From assembly GCA_051294905.1 (NCBI GenBank), contig CM119371.1:4280001-4344000 (forward strand): a DNA stretch of 64,000 nucleotides, in the 5' to 3' direction. The translations under genes were made by a program, and so were the position numbers. The notes under the pieces are model-generated. The model was not told the origin of the DNA. It saw only the letters and a list, made by a program, of their open reading frames with translations, and did not search any database. Below are positions 1 through 54,285 of the stretch, piece after piece. This DNA is from Botryllus schlosseri (lineage: Eukaryota). How positions within the stretch are numbered: position 1 is the stretch's first letter; each line of letters opens with the position of its first letter.

Positions 1-103
1 CAAACAGGTGGTCGGTAGTTGTTGAGGTATGTAGCCTCGTGAAATGTGGGTTGACACAACTTGCTTTGTGGTAGGTCATTGAGATGGATCGATAGTTAAC
101 ATG
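1..103 (-). pseudogene. PLK1: PLK1-like e6 (kinase C-terminal end), cut by window edge
   Basis: cacag|c then MLTIDPSQ*PTTKQVVSTHISRGYIPQQLPTTCL, cf. PLK1 MLQTDPTARPT...SGYIPARLPITCL. Confidence 0.85.
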
Positions 104-126
104 CTGTGGACAAAATCATGTTGGGT

Positions 127-867
127 CAGTGTATGGTGCGTGTCACTACCAAAGAGTCACCAATCATTACAGATTTTGACTCGAGTCAAGTTGAGTCACT
201 TAATTTTTGAATGTGACTTGAGTCAAATCAAGTCACTAACATCGAGTCTCAAGTCATATCGAGTCTTACAGGTCTTCGAGTCAAGTCAATGTCGTCGAAT
301 TTGGGAAAGTGAGTAAATTAAATTCGAGCCATTAGATTTTTTCGGTTTTACTCTAGTCAAGTCAATCGACTCACTCGTCAGATCGAGCTATTACACATTT
401 TGACTTGAATCGAGCCAAGTAAACTTACGACTCGGGGTTACTCAATATATGAAGTAACTCGATTCAAGTCACTCGATTTTTAAACATGACTCAATTCCAG
501 TCACATCAGTCAAAATCAAGCGACTCAAAATTTTTAAGGTGGCTCTCGAGTGAATGTGAAAGCTGTGAAAATCAAGTCACTCGAAATTAGAAGTGACTCA
601 AAACAATTCAAGTCACTTGAACAGTTGACACTACTTCCACAAGTTGTTACGATAAAGATTACTTCTATGTGATAGTTATCAGTCACTAGAAAAAACTATG
701 CATAGAGAAGGCCTACATATTTTTCTACTTACTTGGAGACCACTACTTGTATTTGTAGGGTACACGAGTAAAAATTTACGACTCAACTTCTTCTTGAGTA
801 CCAACGTTAACTATTGTGACCACCTTCTAGTTTGATTCGAGACACGACTCCAGCCATCCCAACACTG
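127..867. mobile_element. Decayed MITE-like repeat rich in GACTCGAGTC/GAGTCAAGTC motifs
   Basis: Right end CATCCCAACACTG matches the ends of 23488-25480 and 46661-47603; inverted homolog at about 48790-49545. Confidence 0.6.
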
Positions 868-926
868 CAGTACATACAGGAATATATGAAAAAAAAATTC
901 AAATCGGAGTCTCAGATATAACATAC

Positions 927-1056
927 CCTTTTATAAGATCGCAAGTTGCAGATGATACATTATGCGGAGAAATGTATTCATTTCTTCTCCATTTTCAAGA
1001 AGGTTTGCTGCAACGTCTCACCTTTAAACGGTCGCTGGTTGGCCAACAATCGTTAC
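927..1056 (-). pseudogene. PLK1: PLK1-like e5
   Basis: ag|...LLANQRPFKGETLQQTFLKMEK/NEYISPHNVSSATCDLIK|gt with frameshifts, cf. [30 protein letters not shown]. Confidence 0.8.
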
Positions 1057-1345
1057 CTACAATAAATAAAATAATGTATCAAGTATGTATCAAAACTGAA
1101 TCAAGTATTCATTCTAATGATTTGATGTGACTGGTGTAGTGAGAGATGGATTTTTCCAGTCCTGAAATTATGCGATCCTTGCCACGAAGAGTAAATTGAT
1201 CAATCAGAATTATATTTCTGATATTATTTAACACTATTATTGTACAGCAATAGATTCTCCAGCTTCTAATACAAATTTTACATTTAGTTACAAACGTTTA
1301 CTTGTACTTGTGTTCGAGAGTTCACGCTGGCTACTTTGACTAGAT

Positions 1346-2052
1346 CAGGGCCGGCCAACCCGTGGCCCGCGGGAAGGTTTTGAGTGGCCCGCGAGGTAAT
1401 TTCCGAAATTTCTAATATCATCAAAAATGGATTTCACAGATTTGTAGCTTGCAAGGCCAACCAAAAATTTGATTAGTCCGGCCGCAATACTTGAGATGTA
1501 ATGACTAAAATATCAGTTCCGACGCATTGACAGATCCATCAGTCATTCACATATTGGTACATCTTCGTACACTACAATAGAGCAGAATAATTTGCGATAG
1601 ATTTATCAAAGGTAAAAATTTTCTACAAGCTCAGCGCAATATGCTGTCACTCGATTTTTTTGTTTTTAATATTGTTGCCCTTTTGTGAAAATGGAAGAAC
1701 ACCTAATGTATCAGATTGAGTCTAACTATATTCGCGATTACGAGACAAAGTGTCGTTCAACATATGCGACCGTGCATTTGCGCTCGCAGTAAGACCGTCC
1801 ACCGTGAAACCTAGGAACGAAGTGATTGACCCATGTTGGTCACAGCTTTCGATATCGATATGACCAAGCGCCGAATAGTCCAGTCCTCGCAAACCTAGCC
1901 CAGCGATATACAGCAGGCCCACAATATAGTAAAGTGACAATATTATTGATCTATGAACTTCAAAATATTTTCGCGCTTCGCGCGGATAGTCGCCCGCGCA
2001 AAAGTTCGTCAATCGAATGTGGCCCTTTGGCCGAAAAGGTTTGCCAGCCCTG
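1346..2052. mobile_element. Non-autonomous hAT (Buster/Charlie-like) element
   Basis: TIRs CAGGGCCGGCCAACC / GGTTTGCCAGCCCTG; perfect 8-bp TSD GACTAGAT. Confidence 0.9.
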
Positions 2053-2134
2053 GACTAGATCCTGTATTTGTCGATTAGATAACAAGCTCCCCCTATGTCA
2101 GTACTGTGTAGATGTCCAAATAAATATATCATAC

Positions 2135-2226
2135 CAAGATTTCCATTCCAAATCCTGCTTTCTCCGTCAGATCTACCCATTTGCTATTCCAAAGCATCAA
2201 TGCCGCGGGCGTATCTTCTCCCTCAT
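2135..2226 (-). pseudogene. PLK1: PLK1-like e8 (polo-cap and start of polo-box 1)
   Basis: cag|(D)EGEDTPAALMLWNSKWVDLTEKAGFG..|gtatg, cf. [27 protein letters not shown]. Confidence 0.8.
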
Positions 2227-2617
2227 CTGTTGAATTATAAGGAGTTTGATATACAGAAATGTAACACTTGACTGGTGCTATCAAGATTTTAGTCACTGCA
2301 ACATACTTCACAATTTAGATCTATGACATCTACTGATCTCGATACACAAATGGGATTCCTAATCACTTTGAATCAAAAAATCACTTTTAGAATTTCAGAG
2401 TAGAATGAATGTGACATCCGCCAGATCAAAATCAATGTCATTTTACAAACTAGATTCAGACAGAGAATCTATGTAGTCGTCAGAGTTCCCCAGACAAGCA
2501 TGAATTGATTTGAGCCATTGCTAGATTCGAATTTTAAAATATTAAATATAGCCTAAATTGCAAAGAGGAAGTCTATTTAGAATAAAACCACTTGGTGTTC
2601 CTCAAATGACAACGCAC

Positions 2618-2775
2618 CCTTCTGTATAGTTGACTTCAACGTTTGATTGTCATCGATCAACTTCCTGAGCTGAGCCTCAAGTTCTGCTGTATGGAGGTCT
2701 GGTGATTGGCACTGCATATGCTGGTCGCCTCTGGCTTGTCACCGAGAGGTTTCTGTCCGTCTGTATTAGCGGCAC
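2618..2775 (-). pseudogene. PLK1: PLK1-like e7 (interdomain linker)
   Basis: tttacag|...PDLHTAELEAQLRKLIDDNQTLKSTIQK|gt, immediately upstream of e8; cf. [20 protein letters not shown]. Confidence 0.6.
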
Positions 2776-3095
2776 CTGTAAAGAAAACAAGAATAAGCCG
2801 ATGCAACTATTTGATAATAGGACTGTGTTTGCGAAAATGAAAAATTTATTTCACTTTACATAAAAGGTTAAACTTTGGCTTTATTAGTGAAAGATGCTAG
2901 TTACCCGTTTTATCGATGTCAGTCCGGGCTGTAACCAAACCACAAAATTCTGAGTAACGAGTCAATCTTTCTTCTATGGTTTTGATTCCAATCATATTCA
3001 CTTCACAAACATGTCAAGTCCAAGTCAACGTGCAAACGGTCAAGTTCGAATCACAGTGTGGAGACTAGAATCCGACCCCGAGTCAAGGTGTTTAT

Positions 3096-4723: not shown

Positions 4724-4862
4724 CCTTCTTTTACACAATTCAAGAACGATGCAGACAAAATCCATTTCTTGGAAAAATCCGTGAAAACCAACTACATGTT
4801 TGTGACTCAAACTGCAATGGAGACTGATCTCTGGACTCATTTGTCTTTCTCATGATCAGTGC
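4724..4862 (-). pseudogene. PLK1: PLK1-like e2 copy
   Basis: [39 protein letters not shown]|gt; 5' deletion. Confidence 0.9.
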
Positions 4863-5269
4863 CTGAAATTCAGTCTTGTACAAATAACCAATCTATTTAG
4901 TTGACGGTCAAATAACGAATGTTTTTGAGTATTGGTACTTCTAGATCTAGATGAGGATTTCAAAAAGTGAGTCGTTCTAGTTCTTGTTATTAGTTTATGT
5001 TAACAAAGCTGTTCAAATAACTGCTCAGAAGGTTTGGAAATGTGTATTGAACTAGGTGCCAAGTTGCCAGATTATTTCAATATCTGTTGAATATATGAGG
5101 GCATCGGTTGAGGTGGTGCTTATCGGTATTGGTAAAATATTATATTGGCCGAGATCTAGCTATCACTCGACTCGAAGCGAAATACTCGATTCAGAATCGA
5201 ATCAATCACGAAACTCGATTTTACACAGCCCTATGAAAGATTTTACTATTCAAACTATGTAGTGCACCC

Positions 5270-5383
5270 CCATGTTGTATATGGCTTTCCGTGGTCGAGT
5301 CGGTTGTGGGCAGTTTCCGTGAAACGGGGCCGTTGAAGAACTCGCTCGCCCACACTTCTTTACAGAGGGTCGTTGCCAGCATT
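5270..5383 (-). pseudogene. PLK1: PLK1-like e6 copy (variant A)
   Basis: tag|a MLATT..KEVWASEFFNGPVSRKLPTT, homologous to 42811-42925; 3' boundary approximate. Confidence 0.7.
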
Positions 5384-6059
5384 CTAGCGAGAAAATCTCT
5401 AATATTGATCAAATCACAGATAGTTACTCACATTTTCAAACATTGTTTGAGAATCAGGATTTGTGGGTTAAAACTATAATAGCTTTGCATTTGAAATAGT
5501 AAACTATTTCCATATTTGGATAGGAAGAGGTCCACGTAGCAGGGTAGGCTTATTTGCAGACTTACACAACAAGCAAATGTTCAGTTTTTCCATATTTAAC
5601 AAGAATTAGCATTACAGAACAAATATTATAGCATAATTGTAATACCAGTATCCACACAGTTATTTTCAGATGAGATAAAAATTAGAAGTTATCTACACAT
5701 TTTCTCGTATTAGATTAGAGTTAGGATGATAGCTACACTTATTTTTCCAAATTAGATTATATTAACAACTGTTTCCGTGAAATCTTGGGACATCGAATGA
5801 AGCTCAGTTCATATCATATCAAAGTTCATTCTCCTGAGCACAAGAATGCAGTAAGCTAGACTCGTTTCTCACTATACAGTTCTTCTGTAGGAATTTCAGG
5901 AAAACCAAATAAGACTAGAATCAGATTACAGGCATTCACTGTAATTAGTTTAATTAGACAACTAGAATTATGTAGTTGTCCAAGTCTGACTTGAGTGCTG
6001 TCAATCAATCGTTACTGACCACCTCTGATCAAATACAATGCGCTACTGTAAACTGTAAC

Positions 6060-6185
6060 TTTATTATCTCTGTGAATGATGTTACCATCGTGAAGATAAA
6101 CAACTCCATGCAGAATCTGTTGCGTGCAATAACCAATCTCTGGTTCTGTGATGGCGCGCCTTCTTTTGTAAACTTCCCTCAGAGA
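6060..6185 (-). pseudogene. PLK1: PLK1-like e3 copy
   Basis: SLREVYKRRRAITEPEIGYCTQQILHGVVYLHDGNIIHRDNK; 126 nt, acceptor AG mutated. Confidence 0.9.
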
Positions 6186-7264
6186 CCCGACTAGAAAAAT
6201 TAAGGCTAATTGTATTGACACGGATGAGAACAACAGTATCATCTGTTGGGAACATCTGAATAGCTAGCGGGCTGGCAGAATTCGACAACATATTTTTGGA
6301 ACCAATGAACCTTCCAAATTAAAAAACCTCATTTCATGATATATTTTTGATATTTGACTTGTCATACACGGGGCTGGGTAATATTGACTGTCTGACTGAT
6401 TTGAAACTGACACGAGTATTAAGCTCAAGTCGAGTATGATGCTAGCCCTACATCACATTTATAGAATTTGTAAATTTTCTACCATACTCTTTCATTGCAC
6501 TTTGTGACAACGCTGTGGGTTGATCGCGACTTCAGAAATATGTCGTTTTCAGTAACACTGCACTTTCATACTAGATATTTCTTAAGCTGTGATATGATCA
6601 ATCGAGGATTACAGCCTTCCACAGTGGAAAACACTTCCAAAAGTATAATTCTCATTAATAAATGAATTCTTTGTTGCTTGATACTCATATGGCAACGAAT
6701 GGATAAGTTCAGTACTCGTTTCACTACTCGACTCATTGTGACCACTGTGGCCAGCACTAGTGATCAAAGTTGTGTAATTAGAAAATTTGCCCTTTTTCAA
6801 AACTAGATTAGAATTAGAGTGATTGATATTTTTATTTTTCAAATTTGATCAGAATTATATTGATAGCTACACATGTCTTTCCACATCAGATTAGAATTGT
6901 AATTTCTTATTTCATCAAAGAAATTGTACAAAATCAAGTGTCAGTTCTTATCAACACCCGGTTTATTCTCATAAGCACGACAATGGCAAATGTCTGTGCA
7001 CAAAGCTGGCCAATTTGTACGATACAGGTGTCCTGTAGCAGTTTTAGGAACACAAGAAATTACATTTAAATTAAACTGTGGACCTAAATGCATTGACAAA
7101 TCAGATTAAAACTTCAACAACATGGGTATTTGGATCTAATTAGGTTAATTAGACAGGAATTATCTAGTTTTGCAATCGTGCTGGTATCGATCACTACAGA
7201 GCTGATGCAATTGCGACTGCCACACTTTGAGAGACATTACAGTTGTAACGAGGAAATGTTTTAC

Positions 7265-7397
7265 ACTTCTTTTGCACAACTAGAGAACAATGTGGACAAA
7301 ATCCTCGTCTTCGAAAAATCCGTGAAATTAAACGACTAGCTTGTGATTCAAACTACGATGGAGACTAATCTAGTTTTGTCTTTATGATGATCATTTC
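7265..7397 (-). pseudogene. PLK1: PLK1-like e2 copy
   Basis: ..FHGFFEDEDFVHIVL*LCKRS|gt; frameshifts and a stop. Confidence 0.85.
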
Positions 7398-8169
7398 CTA
7401 AAATTGAGACTCGTACAAATAATCAATCTAGTTACTCAGTACGTCTTTCTCCGAGTAGTTTTACTTCTTATTGTGGACTTGGAAAAGTGGGTAGTTGTAC
7501 ATTTTGGAAAGTGAGTAGTTCTATAGTTCCTCAGCTCGGTTTATAAATCCAGTATGTTATCATACCGACCAACAACGTAATAGCTAGGGTAATTTAAAAA
7601 ATGCACCGAATTATCAAGTGAGAAGCTTGTGGCTAGGACTAGACACAGTGATTCGGATATTGGGATCTCAGTTGAGCATCGATTTTAATGATGAGTGTCG
7701 AGGAATAAGAGATGATATCTTAAGTTTTGAAATGATACGCTCCTGGCCACTAAGATGGAATCTATCAATGTGAATTATAGTTTTGACATGTTTTTCCACT
7801 GTGGAAGTCATGAAATATGGATTGATCATATCGCATCATACGAGATACGTAGTACAAAACTACACACACTACTGGAAATGACATATATCGGAAGGAATCG
7901 ACCCTCCACATTGTCACAAAGTGCAATGAAATTGGCACGCCGCAGAAAATACAAAATTATCTTTAATATGATGTACAACTGGCGTTATATTATTTGTGGT
8001 TGCATAAAAGGTACATATTAGAATTTTACGATTCAATCATAATGTTGTTGATGTTGTAATGGAAGCTACTCAAATACTCGACTCGATTCAGAGTCCGATT
8101 ACTCAGGTGCGGGATATTTTACAGGTCCACACCTAAGACCCATACAATCCGGTGTTGCATCGTACTCAC

Positions 8170-8345
8170 ATAACACAACCCATGGACCCAGTGTCCACTT
8201 TAAAACTGTGTCTTCCCTAGATCTTCCGAGGCAATACCGTTGAATGTGCGGCAAAAGGCGTCATTTGTTTGGATGTCAAAGTATACTTATGTAGCTAGGC
8301 CAAATCTCCAATCTTCATGTTGCTGTTCAGGAATCGATTCTTCAT
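8170..8345 (-). pseudogene. PLK1: PLK1-like e4 copy (degraded)
   Basis: FLNSNMKIGD/FGLAT..HSFKVDTGSMGCV|gtgagt; frameshifted. Confidence 0.85.
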
Positions 8346-8730
8346 CTGTCAATACAAATTTCACGTTTAGTTACACAAGCATCCATACTTGTACAAATTA
8401 CCAATCTAGTTGGTTGATGGCTAACAAAAGAGTGATTTTTTAGTAGCTGTAGTTGCGGATTTGAAAGGTTCAGTTGTCGGACAACTAGAAAACACGTTTC
8501 GTGTGAATCGTGATACCGTTTTTCTGTTGTGTTATGTTCTTATTTCTTAGTTCATTGTAATTCAGTAAGTCATGTGTTAGTTAAGTAGTTAGTTGTGGAT
8601 TCGTAATGGTCGTTAGTTCTTGTTCTAGTTGAAAATTCTGCAAAGTGAGCAAGTCCCGTTTTACTACTAGTAGCATATTAAAAAGTCCCGTAGTTTGTAC
8701 AAGTACGTTACCACTGCAACAAAATGTCAC

Positions 8731-8850
8731 CTTGATATCCGTGTGAATGATCTTACCAGTATTAATATTACCGACTCCAAGCAGAATCTGTTGCATGTAA
8801 TAACGACTCTCCGTGATGACACGCCTTCTTTTCTGAAGTTCCATCAGCGA
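8731..8850 (-). pseudogene. PLK1: PLK1-like e3 copy
   Basis: cag|SLMELQKRRRVITESRYYMQQILLGVGNINTGKIIHTDIK|gt. Confidence 0.9.
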
Positions 8851-9076
8851 CTGACAACAACAATCAAAGCTAATTGGATTGCCCTAATGAAATCACCAAT
8901 ATTATTTGTTGGGCACATCTAAATCAGTGCTTCTCAACCTGTTTGAACTGGCGGGCTGGTCAAATACGACGACTAATTTTGCATAACGATGAACCTTCTA
9001 ATTAGAAATTACATTAAATGATGCCATTTTGCTAATAGCACCCAAGCACCCGAATGATTCGATTATTAGTCTAGAG

Positions 9077-10259: not shown

Positions 10260-11074
10260 GTCTAGAGTATCACTCATTATGGCATGACACCAGTGTGGAA
10301 GATGTGGAATCTTAAAATATGTACCTTTTTGCGGCCACTACGAGATTTATTTTTTCGATGCTATTTTCACTGTAGAAGGATGTAAGCATCAATGACATAT
10401 CTGGGAATCGTGAGCAACCCACAGCATTGTCACAAAGTATAATGAAATAGGAGTGGTCGAAAAAATACAAAATTATCTCGGTTGTGATATAGAACTGGCA
10501 TTACGTTTGTGCGATAGATTAGTACAACTTCCCGTATCTCTCGTCCTGCTATGACGGCGTTATCGATGATACTAGATTACTCGGCTCGAAGTCTAATACT
10601 TAATCCAGAATTGAGTCACTCAGATACTTGATTTGCCCTGCCATCATAGTACCATAGCATAGATTTATAAAAATTTCACCGTTGAAATTTGCCTCCAGTT
10701 GTAATTGAGTCATTGCATATTTGGAATCTAGTCAAGTTACTCGATTTTTTCAGGCAAGTCCAAGTCACTTGATTTTTGAAGGTGACTCGAGTCAATTTAA
10801 GTCATTCGTTATTTGAAGAAGACTTGAGTCAGGTAACGTCACTCAGTTTTTGAAGGTGACTCAAGTTAAGTCAAGACACTTGAAAAGTTGACTAGTTGTC
10901 ATCAAAACACTGCAGAGCACATTAGAAAAAAATCAAAATATCAACTCCAAGTCTCAGATATAACATACCTTTTGTTAAGATCGCATAGTAAGAGTCCACT
11001 AAGAGTTGAGTCAGCAATGAGAATTATAGTTTGATTAATACTTTCCACTGAGAAAGGCTGTAAATCATACTTAC

Positions 11075-11262
11075 AAAATATATCCCAGTGACCAGGTTTC
11101 CGTTTCGAAACTGTGTCCATTCTTGCCGAGAACTTCCGGGGCAATATAGTTGGGTGTGGCGCAAAAAGTGTTCTTTGTTCGGCTGTCAAAGTCGACTTTG
11201 GTAGCTAGGCTGAAACCTCCTATCTTCAACTCCATGTTATTGTTCCGGAAGAGGTCGTCCAG
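11075..11262 (-). pseudogene. PLK1: PLK1-like e4 copy (open frame); a 3' remnant of e5 follows at about 10969-10985
   Basis: cag|[62 protein letters not shown]|gtaagt; DFG mutated to GFS. Confidence 0.9.
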
Positions 11263-39102: not shown

Positions 39103-39134
39103 GTAAAACATTTCCTCGTTGCAACTGTAATATC

Positions 39135-40816: not shown

Positions 40817-40939
40817 TCGCTGATGGAAGTTTACAGAAAGACGCGCCATCACAGAAGCAGAGGCTTGTTATTGCATGTGACAGATTCTGATTAACGTCAT
40901 TATCTTCATGACTGTAAGACAATTCACAGAGATATTGAG
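40817..40939 (+). pseudogene. PLK1: PLK1-like e3 copy
   Basis: SLMEVYRK/AITEAEACYCM*QIL../YLHDCKTIHRDIE|gt. Confidence 0.85.
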
Positions 40940-41427
40940 GTAATAATTGTAGTGTAGTTGTCTAATGAAACTCATTACAGTGAATGCCTGTAATCTAATT
41001 CTAATCTAATTTGTTAAACGTTTCTATGCACTCATTTTAATTAATCTAATTTCTGGTTTTCCTGAAATTGCTGCAGAAGTATGTCGTGCAAAACGAACCA
41101 AGCTCGATGTACACAGACATTTGCCATTCTTGTGCTGATGAGAATGAATTCTGATTTGATATAAACTGATCTTCATTCGATGCGCAAGGTTTCGTGAGCT
41201 CAGTAATTCAAATTGTAATCTAATGAGCAGCCATTATTCTAATAACTGGATAATTTGGAGTAAACTGTTTAGCTTTTATACTAATTCTAGTCCAATTCGA
41301 AACATAAACTGTGCCGCTATCATTCTCATTTTCACATACTCTGGAGATTATTGTGTTGCTATCATTATAATTGTACTCTAATATGGAAATAAAACTTTCT
41401 AGATGTACTGTAATTCTTATCCTAATA

Positions 41428-42576: not shown

Positions 42577-42810
42577 TCCTAATATAACTGCATAAAGCTG
42601 AACATTTTCTAGGTATCCAAGTCTCCAAATCTGCTTCTCCTGATCCTTGAATCTCTTCGTATCCAAATACGGAATAAGTTTACGATATCAAATCCAAATG
42701 TAGATTCGTATTATAGTTCTAATTCCACAAATCTTCATTCCCAAATATATTTGGCATTATATACGAGTTAGTATCTGTGATTTGGTTATTATCTGTGATT
42801 TCTTCACTAG

Positions 42811-42995
42811 AATATTGGCGAGTGACCCGTCTCATCGAGCTTCTGTAAAGGAAGTGTTGGCCAACGAGTTCTTCAGCGGCTACGTTACACAAAACCTGCG
42901 CACAACCGGATTGAGCTGACGTCCAGGTTTCATTTCACGGACTCTTCCAAGACAAGGATTTTGTCGACATCGTTCTCGAGTTGCGCAAAAGAAAG
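42811..42995 (+). pseudogene. PLK1: Chimeric PLK1-like exon: e6 fused to the 3' half of e2
   Basis: tag|a ILASDPSHRASVKEVLANEFFSGYVTQNLRTTGLS*RP then [21 protein letters not shown]|gtgag. Confidence 0.85.
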
Positions 42996-43092: not shown

Positions 43093-45357
43093 CAGTGGTT
43101 CTTAACCTTGCTCCCAGCGCCCCCCAGGGGGTACTGGGCTCAGGGGGGCGCTGGAGAAAAATTGCTTCGCATTAGATGATGTGGTGATAGGACATATCCT
43201 TAATGAGTATTCGGAACAACTTAACACCGAAAACTTTGTTATATATAGCCTTCAAAGTACATATAGGTTTAATTGTCCATGGGCGCCTAAATGACTGGCA
43301 CCGAATGTTCCTGTCTTGGCAATCTGAACCCCAGAACACGAATTCCATCTGGCAGGGAAAAATTATATGCCAGTGAAGAAATACCAATTTGAAATCGTGT
43401 ATGTCTCTTGGTTTAGTACAATTGGGCGACAGGGATATTCCTGTTGGGCGATATCCCTGTTGGGCGATTCTATATTTTTTGATATTGCAGACAGGAGGTC
43501 ATGAATTAACTAGGGCTGGGCAAAATCGAGTACCTGAGTGATTCGATTCTGAATCACTTAAAATACTTCGAGTCGAGTATTCGAGTATCATTCATTATGA
43601 CGTCACAACAGAATATACTAGGTCAAAGTTCAAATATGTACCTTTTATGTCACCACGTACAACAAAATGCCTGATACCTGTCACATTAATGATACTTCGG
43701 CATGTTTTCGACCATACCGACTTCATTGCACTTCTTGACAATGTTGTGGAACGATCATGCCTTCGGAAATGTGTTATTTCCAGCAACGTTTGTAGCTTTG
43801 TACTATGTCTACCATACTACGACATGGCCAATCAAGGTTTCAAGGCTTCCTCAGGGGAAAATATTATCAAAACTATAATTCTCCTTAGTTCATTAATTTT
43901 CAGTTGCGAGGAGCGTACAATTTCAGTACTCGAAAAAATCATATTTTACTACTCGACTCGAATCATTAAAATTAATACTCGATTCAGATTCGAGTACTCG
44001 AATCATTGTGCCCAGCCCTAGAAATAACATCATGCAACGAAGTCATATTAACGGGCTCGCCCGCCCGAATATGTTTAATTATTAGTTACGGCCCTACAGT
44101 TTCCAAGACACCTCACAATGTTCTCTTCAAGTTTTGATGAGTCTGCGCACACTCAACAACTCACTGTGCTGACCCTTGGACAACAGTGCGTAACGATTAA
44201 AAAAAAGTCATAACTTCAGATTTGGTGTGAGCAACACAGATTTTCTGTGCGCAGAGACGGTGTCAGCAATGCGCACGTGCGCAGCTTTGAGGGAACATTG
44301 CATCTCATTCAGCTCTACCGGTAAATCTGGTAACGTGAGCAGAGGACAAGAAATTGATAGCAATATATTTGCAATCCCCGGTCTTACTGACCGATTTTAG
44401 CATGAATTATCGAAAGTTTTCGCGCTTCGCACTGGCTCGCTAAACAGTACAGCTGATTCCGTGTCAAAAGCGAACAACGTGATGGGGGCGGTCGGTTTAT
44501 CACCCTATGGGAGCCCGAGACCCAAGTTTTTTCGGGGGCCTGACGGAGTGACGTTTCGTTCCTGCCAACAGGTATACGCCCGAAGATGTAGGCTATAATT
44601 ATTGAGGGGTCCTACCTTTTCAAACACACATCACTCAGCTCTACCGGTAAATCTGTTTACGTGAGCAGAGAGATGATAAAAATTGATCTCAATATTCATG
44701 CAATTCCCGATCATATCGACCAATTTCAATCATTAATTAGTGAAATTTTCCGCGCACCGCGCGCGTCTAGGCGAGAGTAGCTGCCTCAGTAAATTGACAC
44801 CCAATGTAGATACCTAGTATCAGCAAATAGCCGACAGCCGAAAGGGGGTCTTGGGGTGAAGTCCCCCGGAAGTCTGGTTTATCACCCGATGGGGGCCCAG
44901 GACCAACGGTTTTTGTTTGGGGGGGGGCTGATGAAGTGCTGTTACGGCCCTGGTAATGAATAAATTTACCTACGGGCACGCCCGAATATGTTTAATTATT
45001 ACTTACAGGCCCTTTATTTTCCTATGTAACAGCTCACTCAGCGCTACTGGTAAATCTGATTACGTGGGCTGAGAGGATAAAAAGTTTATAGCGACTTATA
45101 TATGTAATTACCACCTATTCATTCATGCATTATAGAAGATTTTGGTACCTCGGGCGAAGCCCTCAGAAGTTTGGTTTATCACGCTATGGGTGCGCAAGGC
45201 AATCGTTTATAGGGGGGTTGACGAAGTGCTGTTACGGCCATCCCTCTTTCTCATTGTCTTTATTACATTCCTCACAATATAAAGTAGGGGGGGGGGGCGC
45301 TGGAGCACTATAATTTTTGAAAGGGGGCGCTGGACGAAAAAAGGTTAAGAACCACTG
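43093..45357. mobile_element. Non-autonomous hAT element (family of 9077-10259) with nested MITE
   Basis: TIR CAGTGGTTCTTAACCTT, perfect TSD CACTAGAT. Confidence 0.9.
43511..44020. mobile_element. TAGGGCTGGG-ended hAT MITE, nested
   Basis: TIR TAGGGCTGGGCA; TSD GAATTAAC/GAAATAAC; the empty site GAAATAAC is seen at 9550 in the paralogous host. Confidence 0.9.
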
Positions 45358-46221: not shown

Positions 46222-46346
46222 TTGCTGATGGAAGTTTACAAAGAAGATGCGGCATCGCAGAACCAGCGACACATTACTAAGTGCAACAGATTCTGCTTGG
46301 AGTTTTTCATCTTGATGATTGTAGGATCGTTCAAACAGATATCCAG
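46222..46346 (+). pseudogene. PLK1: PLK1-like e3 copy
   Basis: LLMEVY/RRCGIAEPATHY*VQQILLGVFHLDDCRIVQTDIQ|gt. Confidence 0.85.
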
Positions 46347-46660
46347 GTAACATTGCTGGCAGTAGTGGTAGACTTGTACAAACTACTGGATTTTCCAAAT
46401 ACACTACTTGGTTTCCACATTACAACTAGAGTTAATGCCCATTACGAATCTGCAACTAATGAATACCTGATGACACAAATTACTAATTACAATTGAGCTA
46501 GTAAATATCGGAGATAGAATCACTGAATCAGTATATCAAATGGACGGGAGTTTTATTTAGGAATGACAGGCGTGTCAACCCCCAAGACCCACTTTCCTGG
46601 CTACGTCACTGTATGTAGTTATGACTGTGATGTAGCAATGGCTGCAAGAACATCAAACAA

Positions 46661-47603: not shown

Positions 47604-47820
47604 CAAACAACAGGACATTGGTATCACGATTCTCGTGAAACGACGACGCATGTTTTGTAGCTGTTCGGCAATTGTTTTGGAAACGCATAACTAGCTAGAA
47701 CTATGCACTTTTCATAACTAAAACTAGAACTACTCAAAAAACTTTACTCAGTTGGCCAACAACCAGCCAGATTAATAGTTTATAAACTTGTGTATCTGAA
47801 TGTGAGATTTGTATTGACAG

Positions 47821-48006
47821 CTGGAGAACCTATCCCGTAACAATGTGGGCGTGAAGATTGGAAATTTTGGCCTAGCTACCAGAGTCGACTTTGATGTCCA
47901 AACAAGGAGTACATCTTGCGGCACATCCAACTGCATTGCCCCGGAAGTTCTCGACAAGAATGTACATAGTTTCAAAGTGGACACCCGATCTCTGGGTTGT
48001 GTGTTT
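47821..48006 (+). pseudogene. PLK1: PLK1-like e4 copy
   Basis: cag|LENLSRNNVGVKIGNFGLATRVDFDVQTRSTSCGTSNCIAPEVLDKNVHSFKVDTRSLGCV|gtgagt. Confidence 0.9.
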
Positions 48007-48611: not shown

Positions 48612-48730
48612 GTAGAGCCTACATTACTGGTCGGTAAACCACCGTTAGAAGGTCAGATGTTGCACGAAGCCTTATCGGAAATGGAGAAGAATGAATACAT
48701 GATTCCACCCTCTTGCGATCTAATCAGAAG
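48612..48730 (+). pseudogene. PLK1: PLK1-like e5
   Basis: TLLVGKPPLEGQMLHEALSEMEKNEYMIPPSCDLIR|gt. Confidence 0.9.
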
Positions 48731-49574
48731 GTATTGTTATTTCTGAGACTTGAAATCGACGTTTTTGCATGTTTTCTCATGCGTGCTCAGAGGTTGTTAA
48801 AGTAGTCATTGTTGGTACTCAAGTGGAAGTGGAAGCAACATTGTCAATTTCTACTCTAGTTCAAGTACAAATAGCGATCTCCAAGTAAGAAAAATAACGA
48901 ATATTCTGGCCTTGGTTTTGCCTGAAAACTGAAACTATTGAGTAGAAGTACCGTAGTCTATGCTCTGTCTTAGCTACTGAACACCTCTGGTCCGATCAAT
49001 GGCAACTTTTTCAGGTGACTTAACATGGTTTGAGTGTCCTTTAAAATCGTGTGACTTGAATTGAGTTTTAAAAATTAAGTGATTTGGCATCACTTGACTC
49101 GAGTTGCCCTTAAAACCTAATGACTCCACTTCACTAGGGTCAAAATGTGTAATAACCCAATGTTTCCTCTGAGGTAGTGTCGTGACTTGGCTCTACCTTG
49201 GAAAATCGAGTGACTCAACTTGACATTGATTTGAATCGCCTCCAAAAATGGAGTAACTGAGCTTGAATCCACTCAAAATATGTAATGAGTTGATGTTACT
49301 TGTGACTTGAAGTTAGTGACTAGACTTGACTCAAGTCACTCTTGGAAGCAAACTGTCTTGACTCGAGTAGCCTACAAATTTTGAATAATGTGACTCGAGT
49401 CAATTAAAATGGAGTGATTTGTCTTGAAGCGAGTACCTTTTAAAAATCAAGTAAAGTGACTGGATTTTAAAAAATGTAGTGACTTGATTAGACTCAAATC
49501 AACAGGGATAATGACTTAATGACTTGTGACTCTGTGGCAGGGACAACACTGACCTACTGTGATTTCATCCACAG

Positions 49575-49721
49575 CATGTTGTCTTTCGACCCATCTCATC
49601 AACCTTCCGCAAATCACGCTGTGTCTACTGTCCAGCCACTACATTCGTCAACAACTACCGACCACCTGCTTGCTTATCACAAAGACATCGCAAATCTCAA
49701 CTCAAGACCACTTTTTCAACG
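49575..49721 (+). pseudogene. PLK1: PLK1-like e6 (variant B)
   Basis: cacag|c MLSFDPSHQPSANHAVST/SSHYIRQQLPTTCLLITK..|gt; homolog of 1-103. Confidence 0.8.
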
Positions 49722-51191: not shown

Positions 51192-51310
51192 GCCGTGGCA
51201 TCAAAGACATGTGATCAGTGCGATCGTGTGAATTTACTCAGAACGTGCTTTCGGACGAGAAGCGACATCGCTCTATATCGAAACAACCATCAATATCAAC
51301 TGCACCTTTT
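51192..51310 (+). pseudogene. PLK1: PLK1-like polo-box 2 exon
   Basis: tttcag|AVASKTCDQCDRVNLLRTCFRTRSDIALYRNNHQYQLHL|gtaagt, cf. [34 protein letters not shown]. Confidence 0.8.
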
Positions 51311-51331
51311 GTAAGTTGGTAAATTCATTTT

Positions 51332-52698
51332 CGGCTGACCCTCGTCAGGGGGATATCGTCAGCAATGTGGCGAGAATTCGAATAACTATGTTCAAGAATA
51401 TTATATATCGCTAATTATGACGTCACACGAAAATATACAAAGTTAGAAAACGAGAGACCGCCCTTATCACCATCGCTATGTCGATGACACGTTCGTGATA
51501 TTCGATAATGAATCTGACTGTGATAGTTTACTGGAAAATTTAAACAAACTACACCCAGCATTTCAATTCACGTCGGAAAAATAAATTACCAACCGCCTGG
51601 CATTCCTTGACGTTCTTGTGGAGAAACGGGATGGCAAATTCCTTACCTCAGTTTATAAGAAGCCCACATTTTCGGGTCATTACCTTCGATGGAGCTCTTT
51701 CAGCCCAAAAAGTCGTAAAATCAATTTAATCGGCACCTTGGTTCACCGGACGTTGATGATTTGTTCCGCGGTCAAATTGAATAATGAACTTGACTACATC
51801 CGTAAAATTTTCATTGACAACGGATACCCAGAGTATGTTATTAAGCGGACAATAAGTAAAAAGTTAAGGCATTGGAATGATACGAAACCAGAAGAAACCC
51901 CCGAATTAATTTCTCGTGAAAGTAGGGATCTGTACATTCATCTTCCTTGGATTGTCCCAGTTTCTTATCGATTTGAGAAACAGATAACTTCAGCAGTCTA
52001 CCACTGTTATCCAGCGGTGAAAACTAATGTTGTCTTTACCACGATACCAATGTTTCCTGCAACCAGTAAGGACGTTCTCCCGGCTACAAAACAAAGAAAC
52101 GTAATTTATGAATTCAAGTGCCACTGCGATTGTCGGTACGTAGGGAGAACTTCCAAACGGTTGCAGGACCGTATCAAAGAACACATTCCACCCTCTGTCA
52201 AATCTTATATCTCAAATTCGCAGCATAACAATCCGTTTGTTCTTGAACATAACCAGGCCATGGGTCAAAAATCTTCAATAGGCAAACATTTACTAGAAGA
52301 TCATACGTGTGCTGCTAACTATCACGAGGAAATGTTCTCTATATTGGCTAAGGGTCGCAATTTATTTCATTTGTCTGTTCTTGAGTCCACCATCATCACT
52401 ATGAGTAAACCTAGTCTATGCCAACATAAAGAATTTGTGTATCATTTGAAAATCGCGCATTAACTTGTTTTGCTTCGCTATCTCCATGCCAACGCTTCAG
52501 CTCTCTCGTTTTCTAACTTTGTATATTTTTGTGTGACGTCATAATTAGCGATTTATAATATTGTTGAACATAGTTATTCGAATTCTCGCCATATTGCTGA
52601 CGATATCCCCCTGACGAGGGTCAGCCGAAAAGCTTCGGGAATAAAATGAATATTTTATTCAAATGTGTCATGAAGTTCTGTACTCCTAAGCGTCTCTT
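51332..52698 (+). mobile_element. 5'-truncated Penelope-like element (probably Naiad-like) with short inverted pseudo-LTR
   Basis: RYVDDTF...KPTFSGHYL...VIYEFKCHCDCRYVGRT (ORF 51618-52463); 51328-51457 is the reverse complement of 52502-52631; 12-bp TSD TAAATTCATTTT at 51320 and 52699. Confidence 0.9.
52604..52642 (+). ncRNA. Minimal hammerhead ribozyme motif in the PLE 3' LTR
   Basis: TCCCC-CTGACGA-GG(GTCAG)CC-GAAA-AGCT-TC-GGGA then ATAAAA; palindromic AAGCTT; weak stem II. Confidence 0.65.
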
Positions 52699-52798
52699 TA
52701 AATTCATTTTGCAGAAGAAAATTTTGCAAGAATTTATAAATGTATCCAATTGCAAATCACTGTATATCAGTAATGTCAAACTCAATTTATGTTGCGAG

Positions 52799-53300
52799 TA
52801 GGGCTGGGCAAAATCAAGTACCAGAGTGATTCGAATCTGAATTCTTAATATGCTTCGAGTCTATTGGAGTATCACGCATTGTGACGTCACAGCAGAATGT
52901 ACTATATCAAAGTTCAAATATGTTCCTTTTATGCCACTACAAAGAAGATTATGCGTGTTATCTGTCACATTAAAGATACTTTGGTAATTTTTCGACCTTA
53001 CCGATTTCATTGCACTTCTTGACAATGTTGTGGGAAGATCATGACTTCGAAAATGTATTATTTCCATTTTCGCAGCTTTGTACTATTTCTCGTACGGCGC
53101 GACATGGCCAATCAAGGTTTCAAGGCTTACTCAGTGAAAAATAGTACCAAGACTATAATTCTTGTTAGTAAATTAACTTTTAGTTGCGAGGAATGTATAA
53201 TTTGCGTACTTGAAAAAATTGTCTTTTACTACTCGACTCGAATCATTAAAATTAATACTCGATTCAGAATCGAGTACTCGCAGCATTGTGCCCAGCCCTA
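52799..53300. mobile_element. TAGGGCTGGG-ended hAT MITE
   Basis: Colinear with 43511-44020; TSD GTTGCGAG/GTCGCGAG. Confidence 0.9.
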
Positions 53301-54064
53301 GTCGCGAGACATATTGAAATAGTTTGAGTTGAGTAGTCATGTTGCTACTCAACTACAAGTATAAATAACGAATTCCAGGTCAGCAAAGTACAAGTATTTT
53401 TGGTCTAGTTTGTTTAAATACTGAAAACGGTGACATAGTAGTACTAGTATTTTAAAATCATAACCCCTTCGTGAAATAATGCAAGTAGGCAAACCCTACT
53501 CAAGTATTCCGTGGAAGTACTTTTTACCTTGTACCTCAATCAAGCAATAACAAAATATTACATCCTATACCTTTATACTACTTCTACTCAACCACGAATG
53601 GGAGTAATGATTCCCATGAATTGTGAAGTAAAAATAGAAAAGGAAGGTTTGAATGGTAATCAAGGCGAGTAGTTTTGAAAAGCAGATTTGGTCATGACGT
53701 CGCATACTTTTAGTAACTGATCGGAGTTGTTTACATTCGAAATTGCGAGATCCATCTTATCGACTAACACAAATGACTGATGACATTACCGCCATTACCG
53801 GTCGATGCAATTTACGGAAATATGTTCAATTACCATGCTACATGGGACACTTTGTCTTAATTGTCGTGACAATATCAATCATAATAGTGATCGGAAAATA
53901 TCCCAGAATTACTATATATTTTACGAAATCCAACGTATCAAAAATTACGTAGCCTAGTGGTTGAAACACTTTTGGGTAAAAGTGGGAGGAGTACTTCTGC
54001 CTGTAACCGAGTATACTTGTTCGTGAGTAAGTTGAGTAATTTCATATATTTTTCTATCATGCAG

Positions 54065-54285
54065 GACTACACCAAAGTGATTCTATGTCCTCTGATGGCG
54101 CCGTGACTTACATCGACCAGCAATGTAACTTCACTAACTACAAATTGGAACTGTTACAAGAAGACGAATACAATCACAGTTCAGGAGCTTGCCTGTGATA
54201 CGCAGATTGTATTTTGGAAGGACATATGTTTGAAGACTCTACTGAAGCAGATCATTCGCGATACGCTCGATGCAACTTTGTGTGA
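54065..54285 (+). pseudogene. PLK1: PLK1-like terminal exon (end of polo-box 2)
   Basis: gcag|DYTKVILCPLMA/VTYIDQQCNFTNYKLELLQED..CL*YA, cf. [36 protein letters not shown]..RLRYA. Confidence 0.9.

What the first reader, a model, noticed from the sequence alone, without database searches (positions are those of the whole stretch)
1..54285. Two head-to-head Polo-kinase loci built by intragenic exon amplification
Seen: about 30 splice-bounded PLK1-like exons form two divergent clusters (ATGs at 18426- and 33492+). Each has exactly one exon 1 at its 5' end but 2-4 copies each of e2, e3 and e4, all on one strand within a cluster. Established: canonical PLKs have one kinase domain plus polo boxes. 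Inference: amplification occurred inside the gene, not by whole-gene duplication. It could be the relic of a multi-(pseudo)kinase-module PLK family, a pool of alternative exons, or a PLK-derived dispersed repeat. These copies look dead, so the interesting object is the family or parent elsewhere in the genome.
Basis: partly seen in the sequence, partly recalled or inferred. Interest (0 to 1): 0.8.

Follow-up and report, generated by a model that had tools for sequence, protein, structure and literature searches.

The report
Decayed Polo-kinase (PLK1) pseudogene array
The window holds two broken, back-to-back copies of the cell-division kinase gene PLK1, each with its middle exons repeated several times; they belong to a 2.5-million-base graveyard of such copies beside the normal working gene, and they look like genomic debris rather than a new kind of protein.

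Summary
The window holds 32 PLK1-like exon fragments in two divergent loci. The minus locus has its ATG at 18426 and runs past the window start. The plus locus has its ATG at 33492 and ends at 54255. Each locus has one exon 1 and one 3' end, but 2-4 copies each of e2, e3, e4 and e6, all on one strand.

Both loci are dead. At least 22 of 32 fragments carry a stop, a frameshift or a truncation. A hAT-type transposon splits exon 1 of the plus locus. Exons are barely more alike than the flanking introns (78.3% against 74.9%). Four RNA-seq runs gave no locus-derived reads and no exon joints.

An extra e2-e3-e4-e6 block adds 631 nt, which is not a multiple of three, so a tandem-kinase protein is excluded.

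The loci belong to a family confined to contig C1, 4.03-6.51 Mb. I counted 363 exon hits in 33 strand blocks. e2, e3, e4 and e6 are about three times as common as e1 or e9. The parent is an ordinary 11-exon PLK1, present twice in that same region.

This is a large unprocessed-pseudogene array of modest interest.

The parts
18253..18426 (-). minus locus exon 1 relic, ATG at 18426
   Evidence: tblastn to parent e1, 3 in-frame stops; 77% DNA identity to parent e1
17656..17846 (-). e4 copy, frameshifted
   Evidence: two HSPs in different frames; 1-nt deletion
17200..17298 (-). e3 copy, truncated, with a stop
   Evidence: 'KG*RVITEPE'
16619..16810 (-). e4 copy, 2 stops, DFG read as YFG
15706..15844 (-). 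e2 copy, stops and frameshift
14705..14854 (-). e2 copy, 1 stop
11074..11250 (-). e4 copy, open frame but DFG read as GGF
8728..8853 (-). e3 copy, open frame, 6-nt deletion, HRD read as HTD
8169..8348 (-). e4 copy, 2 stops, 12-nt deletion
7268..7369 (-). e2 copy, 2 stops, frameshift
6057..6185 (-). e3 copy, open frame, HRD kept, both splice dinucleotides lost (GG, TT)
5245..5394 (-). e6 copy with 30-nt deletion
4724..4843 (-). e2 copy, 5' part lost, frameshift
2625..2782 (-). e7 copy, frameshifted
   Evidence: two HSPs in different frames
2135..2227 (-). e8 copy, open frame
929..1049 (-). e5 copy, frameshift
1..114 (-). e6 copy with a stop; the locus continues before the window (e8, e9, e11)
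33492..33548 (+). plus locus exon 1, first part, ATG at 33492
   Evidence: aa 1-19 of parent e1
33549..34360 (.). hAT-type non-autonomous transposon inserted in exon 1 (TIR TAGGGCGG.., perfect 8-bp target duplication GTGATGAC); a second copy lies at 41685-42396
34383..34481 (+). plus locus exon 1, second part, 1 stop
34938..35000 (+). partial e2 (aa 1-21)
35566..35691 (+). e2 copy, stops, frameshift
36170..36301 (+). e3 copy, best preserved (89% aa, 90% nt to parent), HRD read as HTE
38070..38256 (+). e4 copy, frameshift and stop
39005..39103 (+). e2 copy, 1 stop
40814..40942 (+). e3 copy, stop and indels; groups with an e3 of locus X (100/100)
42800..42995 (+). chimeric e6/e2 exon: truncated e6 (42800-42931) fused to the second half of e2 (42927-42995)
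46239..46349 (+). e3 copy, stop and frameshift
47818..48006 (+). e4 copy, open frame, DFG read as NFG
48621..48731 (+). e5 copy, 15-nt net deletion
49561..49672 (+). e6 copy, 56% identity
51186..51311 (+). e10 (polo-box 2) relic, frameshift
54044..54255 (+). e11 relic, frameshift and stop; 3' end of the plus locus
43510..44021 (+). 512-bp hAT-like MITE (17-nt TIRs, 7 of 8 target duplication). Older copies lie after every e4 and, antisense, before most e3
   Evidence: RNA reads from other copies break at 43511 and 44020/44021
7159..9025 (-). 1.9-kb composite block e3-e4-MITE-e2, repeated at 15599-17456 (75%) and inverted at 37951-39134 (69%)
18600..25600 (.). spacer between the two exon 1s; parts are co-duplicated (84-93%) only within C1 4.05-5.71 Mb

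Best explanation
The two loci are non-functional, unprocessed (intron-bearing) pseudogenes of PLK1. They belong to a family of about two dozen such loci confined to a 2.5-Mb stretch of one chromosome-scale contig. That stretch also holds the two intact PLK1 genes.

Inferred history:
1. A local duplicate of PLK1 suffered internal rearrangements: tandem duplication of blocks of exons 2-4 and 6 with their introns, loss of exon 5 from most blocks, and e3-to-e6 and e6-to-e2 joints.
2. This already scrambled locus was then copied as a whole, often in inverted orientation, by segmental duplication within the region.
3. The copies have since decayed neutrally and collected transposons.

The internal block duplications were probably caused by unequal recombination between repeats in different introns. 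hAT-type MITEs sit at the block borders, but this step is inferred and not shown. The window loci encode nothing.
For: Parent:
- Two complete 11-exon PLK1 genes lie at C1:5,790,869-5,807,146(-) and C1:6,285,475-6,298,498(+), each with one copy of every exon in normal order.
- Their peptides are identical while 45 of 1710 exon bases differ, and their introns are 79-96% alike. Both are therefore under constraint.

Family:
- Own-genome six-frame searches at E<=1e-3 gave e1 28, e2 92, e3 92, e4 88, e5 9, e6 76 and e9 31 matches.
- 373 of these lie on C1 between 4,029,825 and 6,508,276. They merge to 363 hits in 33 strand blocks, many reading e1 + several [e2 e3 (e4) e6] + e9.

Introns were copied too:
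- A 1.9-kb block is repeated at 75% identity.
- Homology to the parent is limited to exons plus up to about 200 bp of the upstream intron.

Shared derived order:
- A collinear inverted chain e3-e4-e2-e3-e6 links 9034-5301 of the minus locus to 35993-42908 of the plus locus.
- Loci X (C1:5.435 Mb) and Y (C1:4.933 Mb) carry the same composite units, with 77-84% identity to window blocks.
- One e3 pair between the plus locus and locus X has 100/100 support in an otherwise star-like tree.

Disablement:
- 22 of 32 fragments carry stops, frameshifts or truncation, and e3 at 17200 also has a stop.
- Both exon 1s are broken, one of them by a transposon with a perfect 8-bp target duplication.
- Catalytic motifs are lost in 4 of the 5 open e3/e4 copies: HRD is lost in 2 of 3 open e3 copies and DFG in both open e4 copies.

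Frame:
- Intron phases are 0,0,0,2,2,1, and e2+e3+e4+e6 = 631 nt. An extra block therefore shifts the frame.

Neutrality in the window:
- Copy-to-copy identity is 78.3% in exons (2411 columns) against 74.9% in flanking non-exon DNA (5660 columns), over 14 segment pairs.
- Codon-position distances are flat: window e4 0.211/0.212/0.242; pooled e2+e3+e4 0.235/0.171/0.215.

RNA:
- Four bulk RNA-seq runs of the same species label, subsampled to 6-13%, were laid on 33401-53400.
- Only 182-501 reads were laid, nearly all fitting only in part (0.98-1 run on into unlike sequence).
- There was no joint between exon copies, and the e3, e4 and e5 bins have about 0 depth.

Regional co-duplication: the spacer is 84-93% alike at about ten other places, all on C1 4.05-5.71 Mb.
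Against: - Copy-to-copy dN/dS is below 1 for e2 (0.58) and e4 (0.50), though it is 0.99 for e3.
- For the 31 e4 copies the true frame gives 0.50 against 1.12 and 1.04 in the two wrong frames. Third positions differ 1.55 times more than first and second positions (95% bootstrap interval 1.21-1.94). This suggests that part of the family diverged under coding constraint.
- However, 25 of those 31 copies were the best protein matches. By my rough estimate that choice alone could give a ratio near 1.4. The six unselected window copies are flat.
- Splice dinucleotides are kept more often (23 of 25, 23 of 27) than about 75% base identity predicts, though the alignment favours matches.
It read only 6-13% of each run and covered only the plus locus. 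Small RNAs were not examined.
- Only four of the roughly two dozen loci were read base by base.
- The e3 tree is unresolved apart from one pair, so the order of events rests mainly on shared composite junctions.
Confidence: 0.85

Rival explanations
1. Birth-and-death family with living members. The region once held, and may still hold, several working PLK1 paralogues or truncated kinase or pseudokinase genes. The window loci are merely its dead members.
For: - Two intact PLK1 genes sit inside the region and differ only at synonymous sites.
- e4 copies from other loci show a third-position excess and a frame-specific low dN/dS.
- Many single-exon hits carry no stop.
- Splice sites are often retained.
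Against: - The e4 signal comes from copies chosen for protein similarity.
- The apparently clean e4 subfamily (for example L011) is frameshifted in its first half when translated.
- Loci X and Y, read base by base, are full of stops.
- No protein over 69% identical to the e4 copy at 11074-11250 was found among longer proteins (18 hits from 23 candidates).
- Extra blocks break the frame.
Confidence: 0.1
2. Gene fragments captured and spread by a transposon (Helitron-like or Pack-type capture). On this reading the exon blocks are passengers of a mobile element.
For: - Exon-plus-intron fragments occur in many copies.
- hAT-type MITEs adjoin every e4 (8 of 8) and most e3 copies.
- A few copies lie on other contigs (C17, C93, C94, C147, C183, C5, C13).
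Against: - 373 of the exon hits lie in one 2.48-Mb interval of C1.
- Copies keep one strand over blocks of 10-125 kb.
- Non-genic spacer DNA is co-duplicated only in the same region.
- The MITE after e6 and the one before e3 are also in the parent's introns 6 and 2, so they are old residents of the gene and not carriers.
- No common element termini bound the blocks.
Confidence: 0.03
3. Small-RNA source. Inverted pseudogene pairs give hairpin or antisense transcripts that are processed into siRNAs or piRNAs acting on PLK1.
For: - The window loci are arranged head to head.
- Elsewhere there are mirror-image hit pairs with identical scores, for example 4,605,935(+)/5,266,627(-) and 4,779,393(-)/5,055,868(+).
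- As I recall, pseudogene-derived endo-siRNAs and hairpin-RNA loci are known in other animals. This was not checked here.
Against: - The two window loci are only 66-79% alike, too diverged for a long duplex.
- Poly-A type RNA-seq gave no locus-derived reads on either strand.
- No small-RNA data were examined, so this reading is untested rather than refuted.
Confidence: 0.04
4. Assembly artefact: uncollapsed haplotypes or mis-joined repeats create the apparent multiplicity.
For: Some hit pairs in the region have identical scores in mirror orientation. The two parents could in principle be divergent haplotypes.
Against: - Copies inside the window differ by 20-34% and carry different indels and transposon insertions. 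That is far beyond allelic difference.
- The parents differ by 4-21% in their introns and lie 480 kb apart.
Confidence: 0.02

Closest known systems
Unprocessed (duplicated) pseudogene clusters made by segmental duplication
   Same: - The copies keep introns and splice signals.
- They lie near the parent on the same chromosome.
- They carry stops, frameshifts and transposon insertions.
- Their exons and introns diverge at nearly equal rates.
   Different: - The scale is larger: at least 363 exon relics over 2.5 Mb from a single essential mitotic kinase gene.
- The copied unit was itself an internally re-duplicated, scrambled gene.
NBPF/Olduvai-type two-level amplification in primates (recalled, not checked here)
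   Same: Exon blocks are tandemly amplified inside a gene, and the whole genes are then multiplied by segmental duplication within one chromosomal region.
   Different: There the repeated exon sets stay in frame and are expressed as protein repeats. Here a block adds 631 nt and breaks the frame, the copies are decayed, and no transcripts were seen.
PLK1 copies in Daphnia pulex (PMC2680839; passages read)
   Same: Lineage-specific multiplication of PLK1. That paper reports eleven PLK homologues: at least three PLK1 genes plus six short or truncated PLK1-like sequences, some judged to be pseudogenes.
   Different: There are an order of magnitude more relics here, all in one region, with internal exon-block repeats that the paper does not describe.
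Repeat-mediated intragenic exon duplication (unequal recombination between interspersed repeats in different introns; recalled from human disease genes)
   Same: Blocks of internal exons are duplicated head to tail with their introns, and interspersed repeats (here hAT MITEs) lie at the block borders.
   Different: The recombination joints could not be mapped here, because intron homology to the parent is lost. The mechanism is inferred.
Mutually exclusive alternative-exon clusters (Dscam-type; recalled)
   Same: Several tandem versions of the same exon lie on one strand inside one locus.
   Different: Such clusters need intact versions of equal frame and need spliced transcripts. Here most versions are broken and no splicing was seen.

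Membership tests
Polo-like kinase 1 (origin of the fragments) | Kinase-domain sequence closest to PLK1 rather than to other kinases | tested here: met
   PLK1 chains are the best PDB hits (E 6e-23), ahead of PLK3, PLK2 and PLK4. Fragments align exon by exon to a 570-aa PLK1.
Polo-like kinase 1 (origin of the fragments) | Polo-box exons at the 3' end | tested here: met
   e10 and e11 relics lie at 51186-54255. e8, e9 and e11 of the minus locus lie just before the window.
Polo-like kinase 1 (as a working gene) | Open reading frame through one kinase domain and two polo boxes | tested here: not met
   22 of 32 fragments are disabled. Both exon 1s are broken. e7-e9 are missing from the plus locus.
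Polo-like kinase 1 (as a working gene) | Catalytic HRD and DFG motifs | tested here: not met
   Open e3 copies read HTD, HTE and HRD. Open e4 copies read GGF and NFG.
Unprocessed pseudogene | Parent's exon-intron structure retained | tested here: met
   Exon copies are separated by intron-like DNA. AG is kept at 23 of 25 acceptors and GT at 23 of 27 donors. Upstream intron ends align to the parent.
Unprocessed pseudogene | Neutral divergence (exon about equal to intron, no codon-position bias) | tested here: met
   78.3% against 74.9% identity. Window codon positions are flat. The wider e4 sample is inconclusive.
Unprocessed pseudogene | No functional transcript | tested here: inconclusive
   No locus-derived reads or exon joints in 4 RNA-seq runs for 33401-53400.
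Processed pseudogene (retrocopy) | Intronless, contiguous cDNA-like copy | tested here: not met
   Exons are 0.3-3 kb apart and flanked by intron homology.
Tandem-kinase or multi-domain kinase protein | Repeated modules joined in frame | tested here: not met
   Intron 6 has phase 1 and intron 1 has phase 0. A block is 631 nt, or 760 nt with e5, and both leave remainder 1.
Transposon-captured gene fragments | Copies dispersed genome-wide and bounded by element termini | tested here: not met
   Hits are confined to C1 4.03-6.51 Mb plus a few small contigs. No common termini were found. Termini were not searched exhaustively.
Mutually exclusive exon cluster | Intact alternative exons used one at a time in transcripts | tested here: not met
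   Most copies are disabled and there are no joints between exon copies.

The most novel reading that the evidence does not exclude
The 2.5-Mb field of about two dozen inverted, internally re-duplicated PLK1 relics is not mere debris. It could be the fossil, or a still active remnant, of an intragenomic conflict or dosage-control system built on the mitotic and meiotic kinase PLK1. For example, inverted pseudogene pairs could yield hairpin small RNAs that tune the two intact PLK1 genes embedded in the same region. The frame-specific constraint seen in e4 copies from other loci would then reflect a time when many paralogues were expressed.
Probability: 0.06. Interest if true: 0.7.

Novelty: new member of a known kind. 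Interest (0 to 1): 0.33.

Why it matters
- Annotation. Gene predictors are likely to stitch these exon relics into false 'PLK1-like' or multi-kinase models. The true PLK1 genes are the two 11-exon loci at 5.79-5.81 and 6.29-6.30 Mb of the same contig.
- Genome evolution. This is a clear example of two-level amplification, with exon blocks amplified inside a gene and the whole locus then multiplied. It is centred on an essential cell-division kinase and sits in a region that still holds two constrained PLK1 copies.
- A natural series of unprocessed pseudogenes. The region can be used to measure neutral decay, transposon turnover and inverted segmental duplication in a tunicate-like genome. The closest named PLK1 is from the ascidian Styela clava (94% over exon 4).
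- It does not reveal a new protein architecture.

Tried and rejected
I used own-genome searches and fetched stretches instead.
The regional map therefore rests on search coordinates plus two extra loci of 20 and 16 kb.
- Sequencing-run index: no RNA holder was listed for 33401-43400. The raw-read RNA runs were laid instead.
- A tree of 12 e3 copies with flanks was star-like, with 1 of 9 inner branches supported. It could not order the duplications.
- Mapping the duplication breakpoints onto the parent's introns failed. Beyond about 200 bp from the exons, only dispersed repeats match.
- NG86 dN/dS gave mixed values: 0.58, 0.99 and 0.50. Wrong-frame and codon-position controls showed that the e4 signal comes from the 25 copies selected by protein similarity and not from the window copies.
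- An apparent 'in-frame two-codon deletion' e4 subfamily turned out to be frameshifted. It was an artefact of how my projection masked gapped codons.
- A search for longer proteins resembling the e4 copy at 11074-11250 found nothing above 69% identity.
- There is no telomere repeat (TTAGGG x3, up to 2 mismatches) in the window.
- Earlier notes of this scan held nothing on this genome or topic.
- Literature: three full-text searches found no report of a PLK1 array in ascidians or tunicates (listings only). The Daphnia paper was read in passages.
- Pfam gave no hit at E<=0.001 for the ORFs I take to be GIY-YIG-like. The Penelope-like label is therefore my own reading of the motifs.

Full report
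**What is in the window.**
- The window is G000:C1:4,280,001-4,344,000 of a 495.5-Mb, 219-contig eukaryotic assembly. It is about 39% G+C.
- Stop-to-stop ORFs contain many short pieces resembling the PLK1 kinase domain.
- Ten pieces were scanned against Pfam. Seven hit Pkinase, two of them above the cut-off, and three had no hit.
- For the piece at 11071-11280(-), the best solved structures are PLK1 chains (E 6e-23), well ahead of PLK3, PLK2 and PLK4.

**Reference and parent.**
- An own-genome search with that e4 piece gave 88 matches, almost all on C1 between 4.03 and 6.51 Mb. Two of them were clean copies at 5.80 Mb(-) and 6.29 Mb(+).
- The Pfam POLO_box model placed intact polo boxes next to both.
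- I fetched these places. I used a 570-aa PLK1 (P0001) found with the clean e4. P0001 is 97% identical to that exon, and the closest named protein is Styela clava PLK1-like at 94%.
- tblastn shows two complete genes of 11 coding exons in normal order. Gene A is C1:5,790,869-5,807,146(-). Gene B is C1:6,285,475-6,298,498(+).
- Their exon peptides are identical, although 45 of 1710 exon bases differ. Their introns are only 79-96% alike.
- They are therefore two constrained, ordinary, single-domain PLK1 genes, or possibly very divergent haplotypes placed apart.
- Splice sites give intron phases 0,0,0,2,2,1 for introns 1-6.

**Anatomy of the two loci.**
- I mapped the parent's exon peptides onto the window plus 20 kb before it and 10 kb after it.
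- The minus locus reads, 5' to 3': e1 (18253-18426), e4, e3, e4, e2, e2, e4, e3, e4, e2, e3, e6, e2, e7, e8, e5, e6. It then continues before the window with e8, e9 and e11, ending 4073 bases before base 1.
- The plus locus reads: e1 (33492-33548 and 34383-34481), a partial e2, e2, e3, e4, e2, e3, e6 fused to e2, e3, e4, e5, e6, e10, e11 (ending at 54255).
- That makes 32 fragments in the window, 17 minus and 15 plus. Each locus has one e1 and one 3' end, all on one strand.
- A third partial locus (e6-e11, minus strand) lies 0.9-6.4 kb beyond the window's end. The tail of a fourth (e9, e11, plus strand) lies 15 kb before its start.
- Self-comparison shows that introns were copied with the exons. 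A 1.9-kb block (e3, e4, MITE, e2) at 7159-9025 recurs at 15599-17456 (75%) and, inverted, at 37951-39134 (69%).

**The loci are dead.**
- A script aligned each fragment to its parent exon. It flagged 22 of 32 as carrying a stop, a frameshift or a truncation.
- In that script the reading frames for e7 and e11 were mis-set, so their stop counts do not count. Both still have net indels that are not multiples of three.
- e3 at 17200 passed the script but has a stop.
- Exon 1 of the minus locus has three stops.
- Exon 1 of the plus locus is split by an 812-bp element with inverted ends (TAGGGCGG...) and a perfect 8-bp target duplication, GTGATGAC. These are the hallmarks of a hAT-type transposon.
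- Among the open copies, e3 reads HTD, HTE or HRD at the catalytic loop. e4 reads GGF or NFG at the DFG motif.
- The plus locus lacks e7-e9.

**No multi-kinase protein is possible.**
- e2, e3, e4 and e6 are 150, 126, 188 and 167 nt, 631 nt together. With e5 the total is 760 nt.
- Both totals leave remainder 1 on division by three. Intron 6 (phase 1) cannot join intron 1 (phase 0) in frame.
- Each block also lacks the glycine loop and catalytic lysine of e1, and most blocks lack e5.
- Skipping e5 alone would keep the frame, because both flanking introns have phase 2.

**Neutral decay.**
- Over 14 pairs of repeated segments, exon columns are 78.3% identical (2411 columns, 4% gaps). Neighbouring non-exon columns are 74.9% identical (5660 columns, 9% gaps).
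- Pairwise NG86 dN/dS among copies is 0.58 for e2 (7 copies), 0.99 for e3 (6 copies) and 0.50 for e4 (31 copies). Against the parent it is 0.27-0.40.
- As a control I read the same alignments in the two wrong frames. e4 gives 1.12 and 1.04 there, so e4 carries a frame-specific signal. e2 and e3 do not show a consistent one.
- Split by origin, the six window e4 copies are flat by codon position (0.211, 0.212, 0.242).
- The 25 e4 copies from other loci show a third-position excess (0.192, 0.175, 0.301). The third-position ratio for all 31 copies is 1.55, with a bootstrap interval of 1.21-1.94.
- Those 25 were the best protein matches. By my rough estimate, that choice could give a ratio near 1.4 on its own.
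- So the window copies look neutral. A past functional phase for parts of the family stays possible but unproven.
- Splice dinucleotides are kept at 23 of 25 acceptors and 23 of 27 donors. That is more than about 75% identity predicts, but the alignment favours matches.

**RNA.**
- The run index listed no RNA holder. It did offer raw-read RNA runs of the same species label.
- Four bulk RNA-seq runs from two studies were laid on 33401-53400, reading 6-13% of each run.
- Only 182, 188, 414 and 501 reads were laid. Nearly all fitted only in part, and 0.98-1 of them run on into unlike sequence.
- The bins with most reads coincide with transposons. The loose ends pile up at 43511 and 44020/44021, which are the MITE ends.
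- The bins holding e3 (36170), e4 (38070) and e5 (48621) have about 0 depth. No joint connects exon copies.
- This argues against transcription of the plus locus in those samples.

**The family.**
- Own-genome searches with the parent exons at E<=1e-3 gave:

| exon | matches | candidates scored |
|---|---|---|
| e1 | 28 | 50 of 50 |
| e2 | 92 | 129 of 129 |
| e3 | 92 | 150 of 204 |
| e4 | 88 | 150 of 156 |
| e5 | 9 | 23 of 23 |
| e6 | 76 | 109 of 109 |
| e9 | 31 | 45 of 45 |

- The POLO_box model gave 24 matches. All these counts are lower bounds.
- The e4 query was a window copy, while the other queries were parent exons.
- The hits on C1 number e1 25, e2 88, e3 88, e4 72, e5 7, e6 70 and e9 23. 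All lie between 4,029,825 and 6,508,276. They merge to 363 hits in 33 strand blocks of up to 125 kb. I left the hits on other contigs out of this map.
- Many blocks read e1 + several [e2 e3 (e4) e6] + e9. An example is 5,435,814-5,454,718(+).
- So e2, e3, e4 and e6 are about three times as common as e1 or e9, and e5 is rare. Its rarity may partly reflect weak detectability of a 43-aa exon.
- Two further loci were read base by base.
  - Locus X (C1:5,435,001-5,455,000): e1 e2 e3 e6 e2 e3 e4 e7 e3 e6 e2 e3 e4 e6 e7 e8 e9.
  - Locus Y (C1:4,933,001-4,949,000): e1 e2 e3 (a weak e5-like hit) e3 e4 e2 e2 e3 e6 e2 e3 e6 e2 e3 e4 e6.
  - Both are riddled with stops.

**Order of events.**
- The two window loci share a collinear, inverted chain: 8675-9034 with 35993-36354, 7233-8424 with 37983-39134, 6065-6437 with 40551-40934, and 5301-5588 with 42594-42908. 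This is e3, e4, e2, e3, e6 in the same order.
- Locus Y carries the e3-e4-e2 unit at 84% and 80% identity to the two minus-locus units. Those two units are only 75% alike to each other. Locus Y also carries the e3-e6 unit at 77-82% to the plus locus.
- Locus X shares e3-e6-e2 units. One of its e3 copies pairs with the plus-locus e3 at 40814 with 100/100 support, in a tree that is otherwise a star.
- The derived joints (e4 to e2, e3 to e6, e6 to e2) are therefore older than the multiplication of loci.
- Parts of the spacer between the two exon 1s (about 19,100-25,600) recur at 84-93% identity at about ten places, all on C1 4.05-5.71 Mb. Large units including non-genic DNA were thus copied within the region.
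- Homology to the parent survives only in exons plus up to about 200 bp of the upstream intron. The founding paralogue therefore split from the working gene long ago.

**Mechanism of the internal duplication (inferred).**
- A 512-bp element at 43510-44021 has 17-nt inverted ends and a 7-of-8 target duplication. It is a hAT-like MITE.
- Older copies of it lie in sense orientation within about 100-300 bp after every e4 examined: 6 of 6 in the window and 2 of 2 in locus X.
- Copies also lie antisense before most e3 copies, and as a 5' stub after e6.
- The parent has copies in introns 2, 6 and 10 but not in intron 4.
- All three e4-to-e2 joints in the window contain this MITE.
- Unequal recombination between such repeats in different introns is the classic route to exon-block duplication and fits this layout. 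However, I found no matching sense copy in intron 1, and the joints could not be mapped. This step remains a hypothesis.

**Rivals.**
- Transposon capture is unlikely. The copies are regional and not dispersed, they keep strand over long blocks, and they share non-genic spacers.
- An alternative-exon pool and a tandem-kinase gene fail on disablement, frame and RNA.
- A birth-and-death family with some living members is the main live rival, at about 10%.
- A small-RNA role is untested.
- Assembly error cannot explain copies that differ by 20-34%.

**Comparison and novelty.**
- This is an unprocessed-pseudogene array made by segmental duplication, with the twist that the copied unit was already an internally re-duplicated gene.
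- As I recall, the same two-level pattern is known in working form from the primate NBPF/Olduvai genes.
- Lineage-specific PLK1 copies with truncated relatives are reported in Daphnia pulex (PMC2680839, passages read).
- Three full-text searches found no report of a PLK1 array in tunicates.
- I rate it a new member of a known kind. It is large and tidy enough to be a useful case, but it is not a new mechanism or a new protein architecture.

Noticed in passing
window 28260-29786 (+) and 55666-56745 (-): Two long open C2H2 zinc-finger arrays of 508 and 359 aa stop-to-stop. Pfam finds 15 and 10 zf-C2H2 stretches. They are about 74% alike at the DNA level, lie in opposite orientation and flank the plus PLK locus. 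They may be live genes co-duplicated with the PLK relics.
   Followed up: partly
window 30360-31119 / 32395-33147, and 50049-52463: Retroelement remains. A 94% inverted pair flanks ORFs with a reverse-transcriptase hit (RVT_1, 31105-31962). A neighbouring ORF has what I read as a GIY-YIG-like motif, suggesting a Penelope-like element, but Pfam gave no hit for that ORF. A second, older element with RVT_1 (50533-50985) sits inside the plus locus between e6 and e10.
   Followed up: partly
window about 26070-27725: A 1.65-kb dispersed repeat with an internal inverted repeat (26787-27066). At least 30 copies at 88-96% identity lie on many contigs. It is a young transposon family unrelated to the PLK array.
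   Followed up: no
window 37228-37261: In run X9, RNA reads that match this short stretch run on into CCCTAA telomere-type repeats (10 reads, agreement 1.0). A related repeat copy elsewhere seems to adjoin telomeric repeats in a transcript. The window itself holds no telomere repeat.
   Followed up: partly
window 12043-12483 and 12713-13153: A young inverted repeat with 441-bp arms, 96% identical and 230 bp apart, lies inside the minus locus between e2 (14705) and e4 (11074). It is far younger than the PLK blocks.
   Followed up: no
G000:C1:5,790,869-5,807,146 (-) and 6,285,475-6,298,498 (+): Two intact PLK1 genes lie 480 kb apart in inverted orientation. Their peptides are identical but 45 of 1710 exon bases differ, and their introns are 79-96% alike. 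This means either two constrained paralogues or very divergent haplotypes both kept in the assembly.
   Followed up: partly
L033-L037 (G000:C8:20.71 Mb, C12:20.42/20.46 Mb, C16:22.46/22.49 Mb): Partial PLK1 copies holding e8-e10 with introns lie on three other contigs, 93-94% identical to the parent in e9. The C12 and C16 copies come as mirror pairs and share the same stops. The C8 copy is open in these three exons.
   Followed up: partly
G000:C1, several places (e.g. 4,605,935+/5,266,627-; 4,779,393-/5,055,868+; 4,216,425+/4,076,508-): Exon hits come in mirror-image pairs with identical scores, hundreds of kb apart. These point to recent large inverted duplications within the array, or to duplicated haplotypes.
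   Followed up: no
window 9190-9788 / 43143-44258, and locus X (L051) about 13080-14831: A sequence next to the MITE is 91-93% alike between the minus and plus loci and 84-93% alike to locus X. That is much younger than the PLK blocks around it. It is probably a more recent transposon or a converted tract.
   Followed up: no
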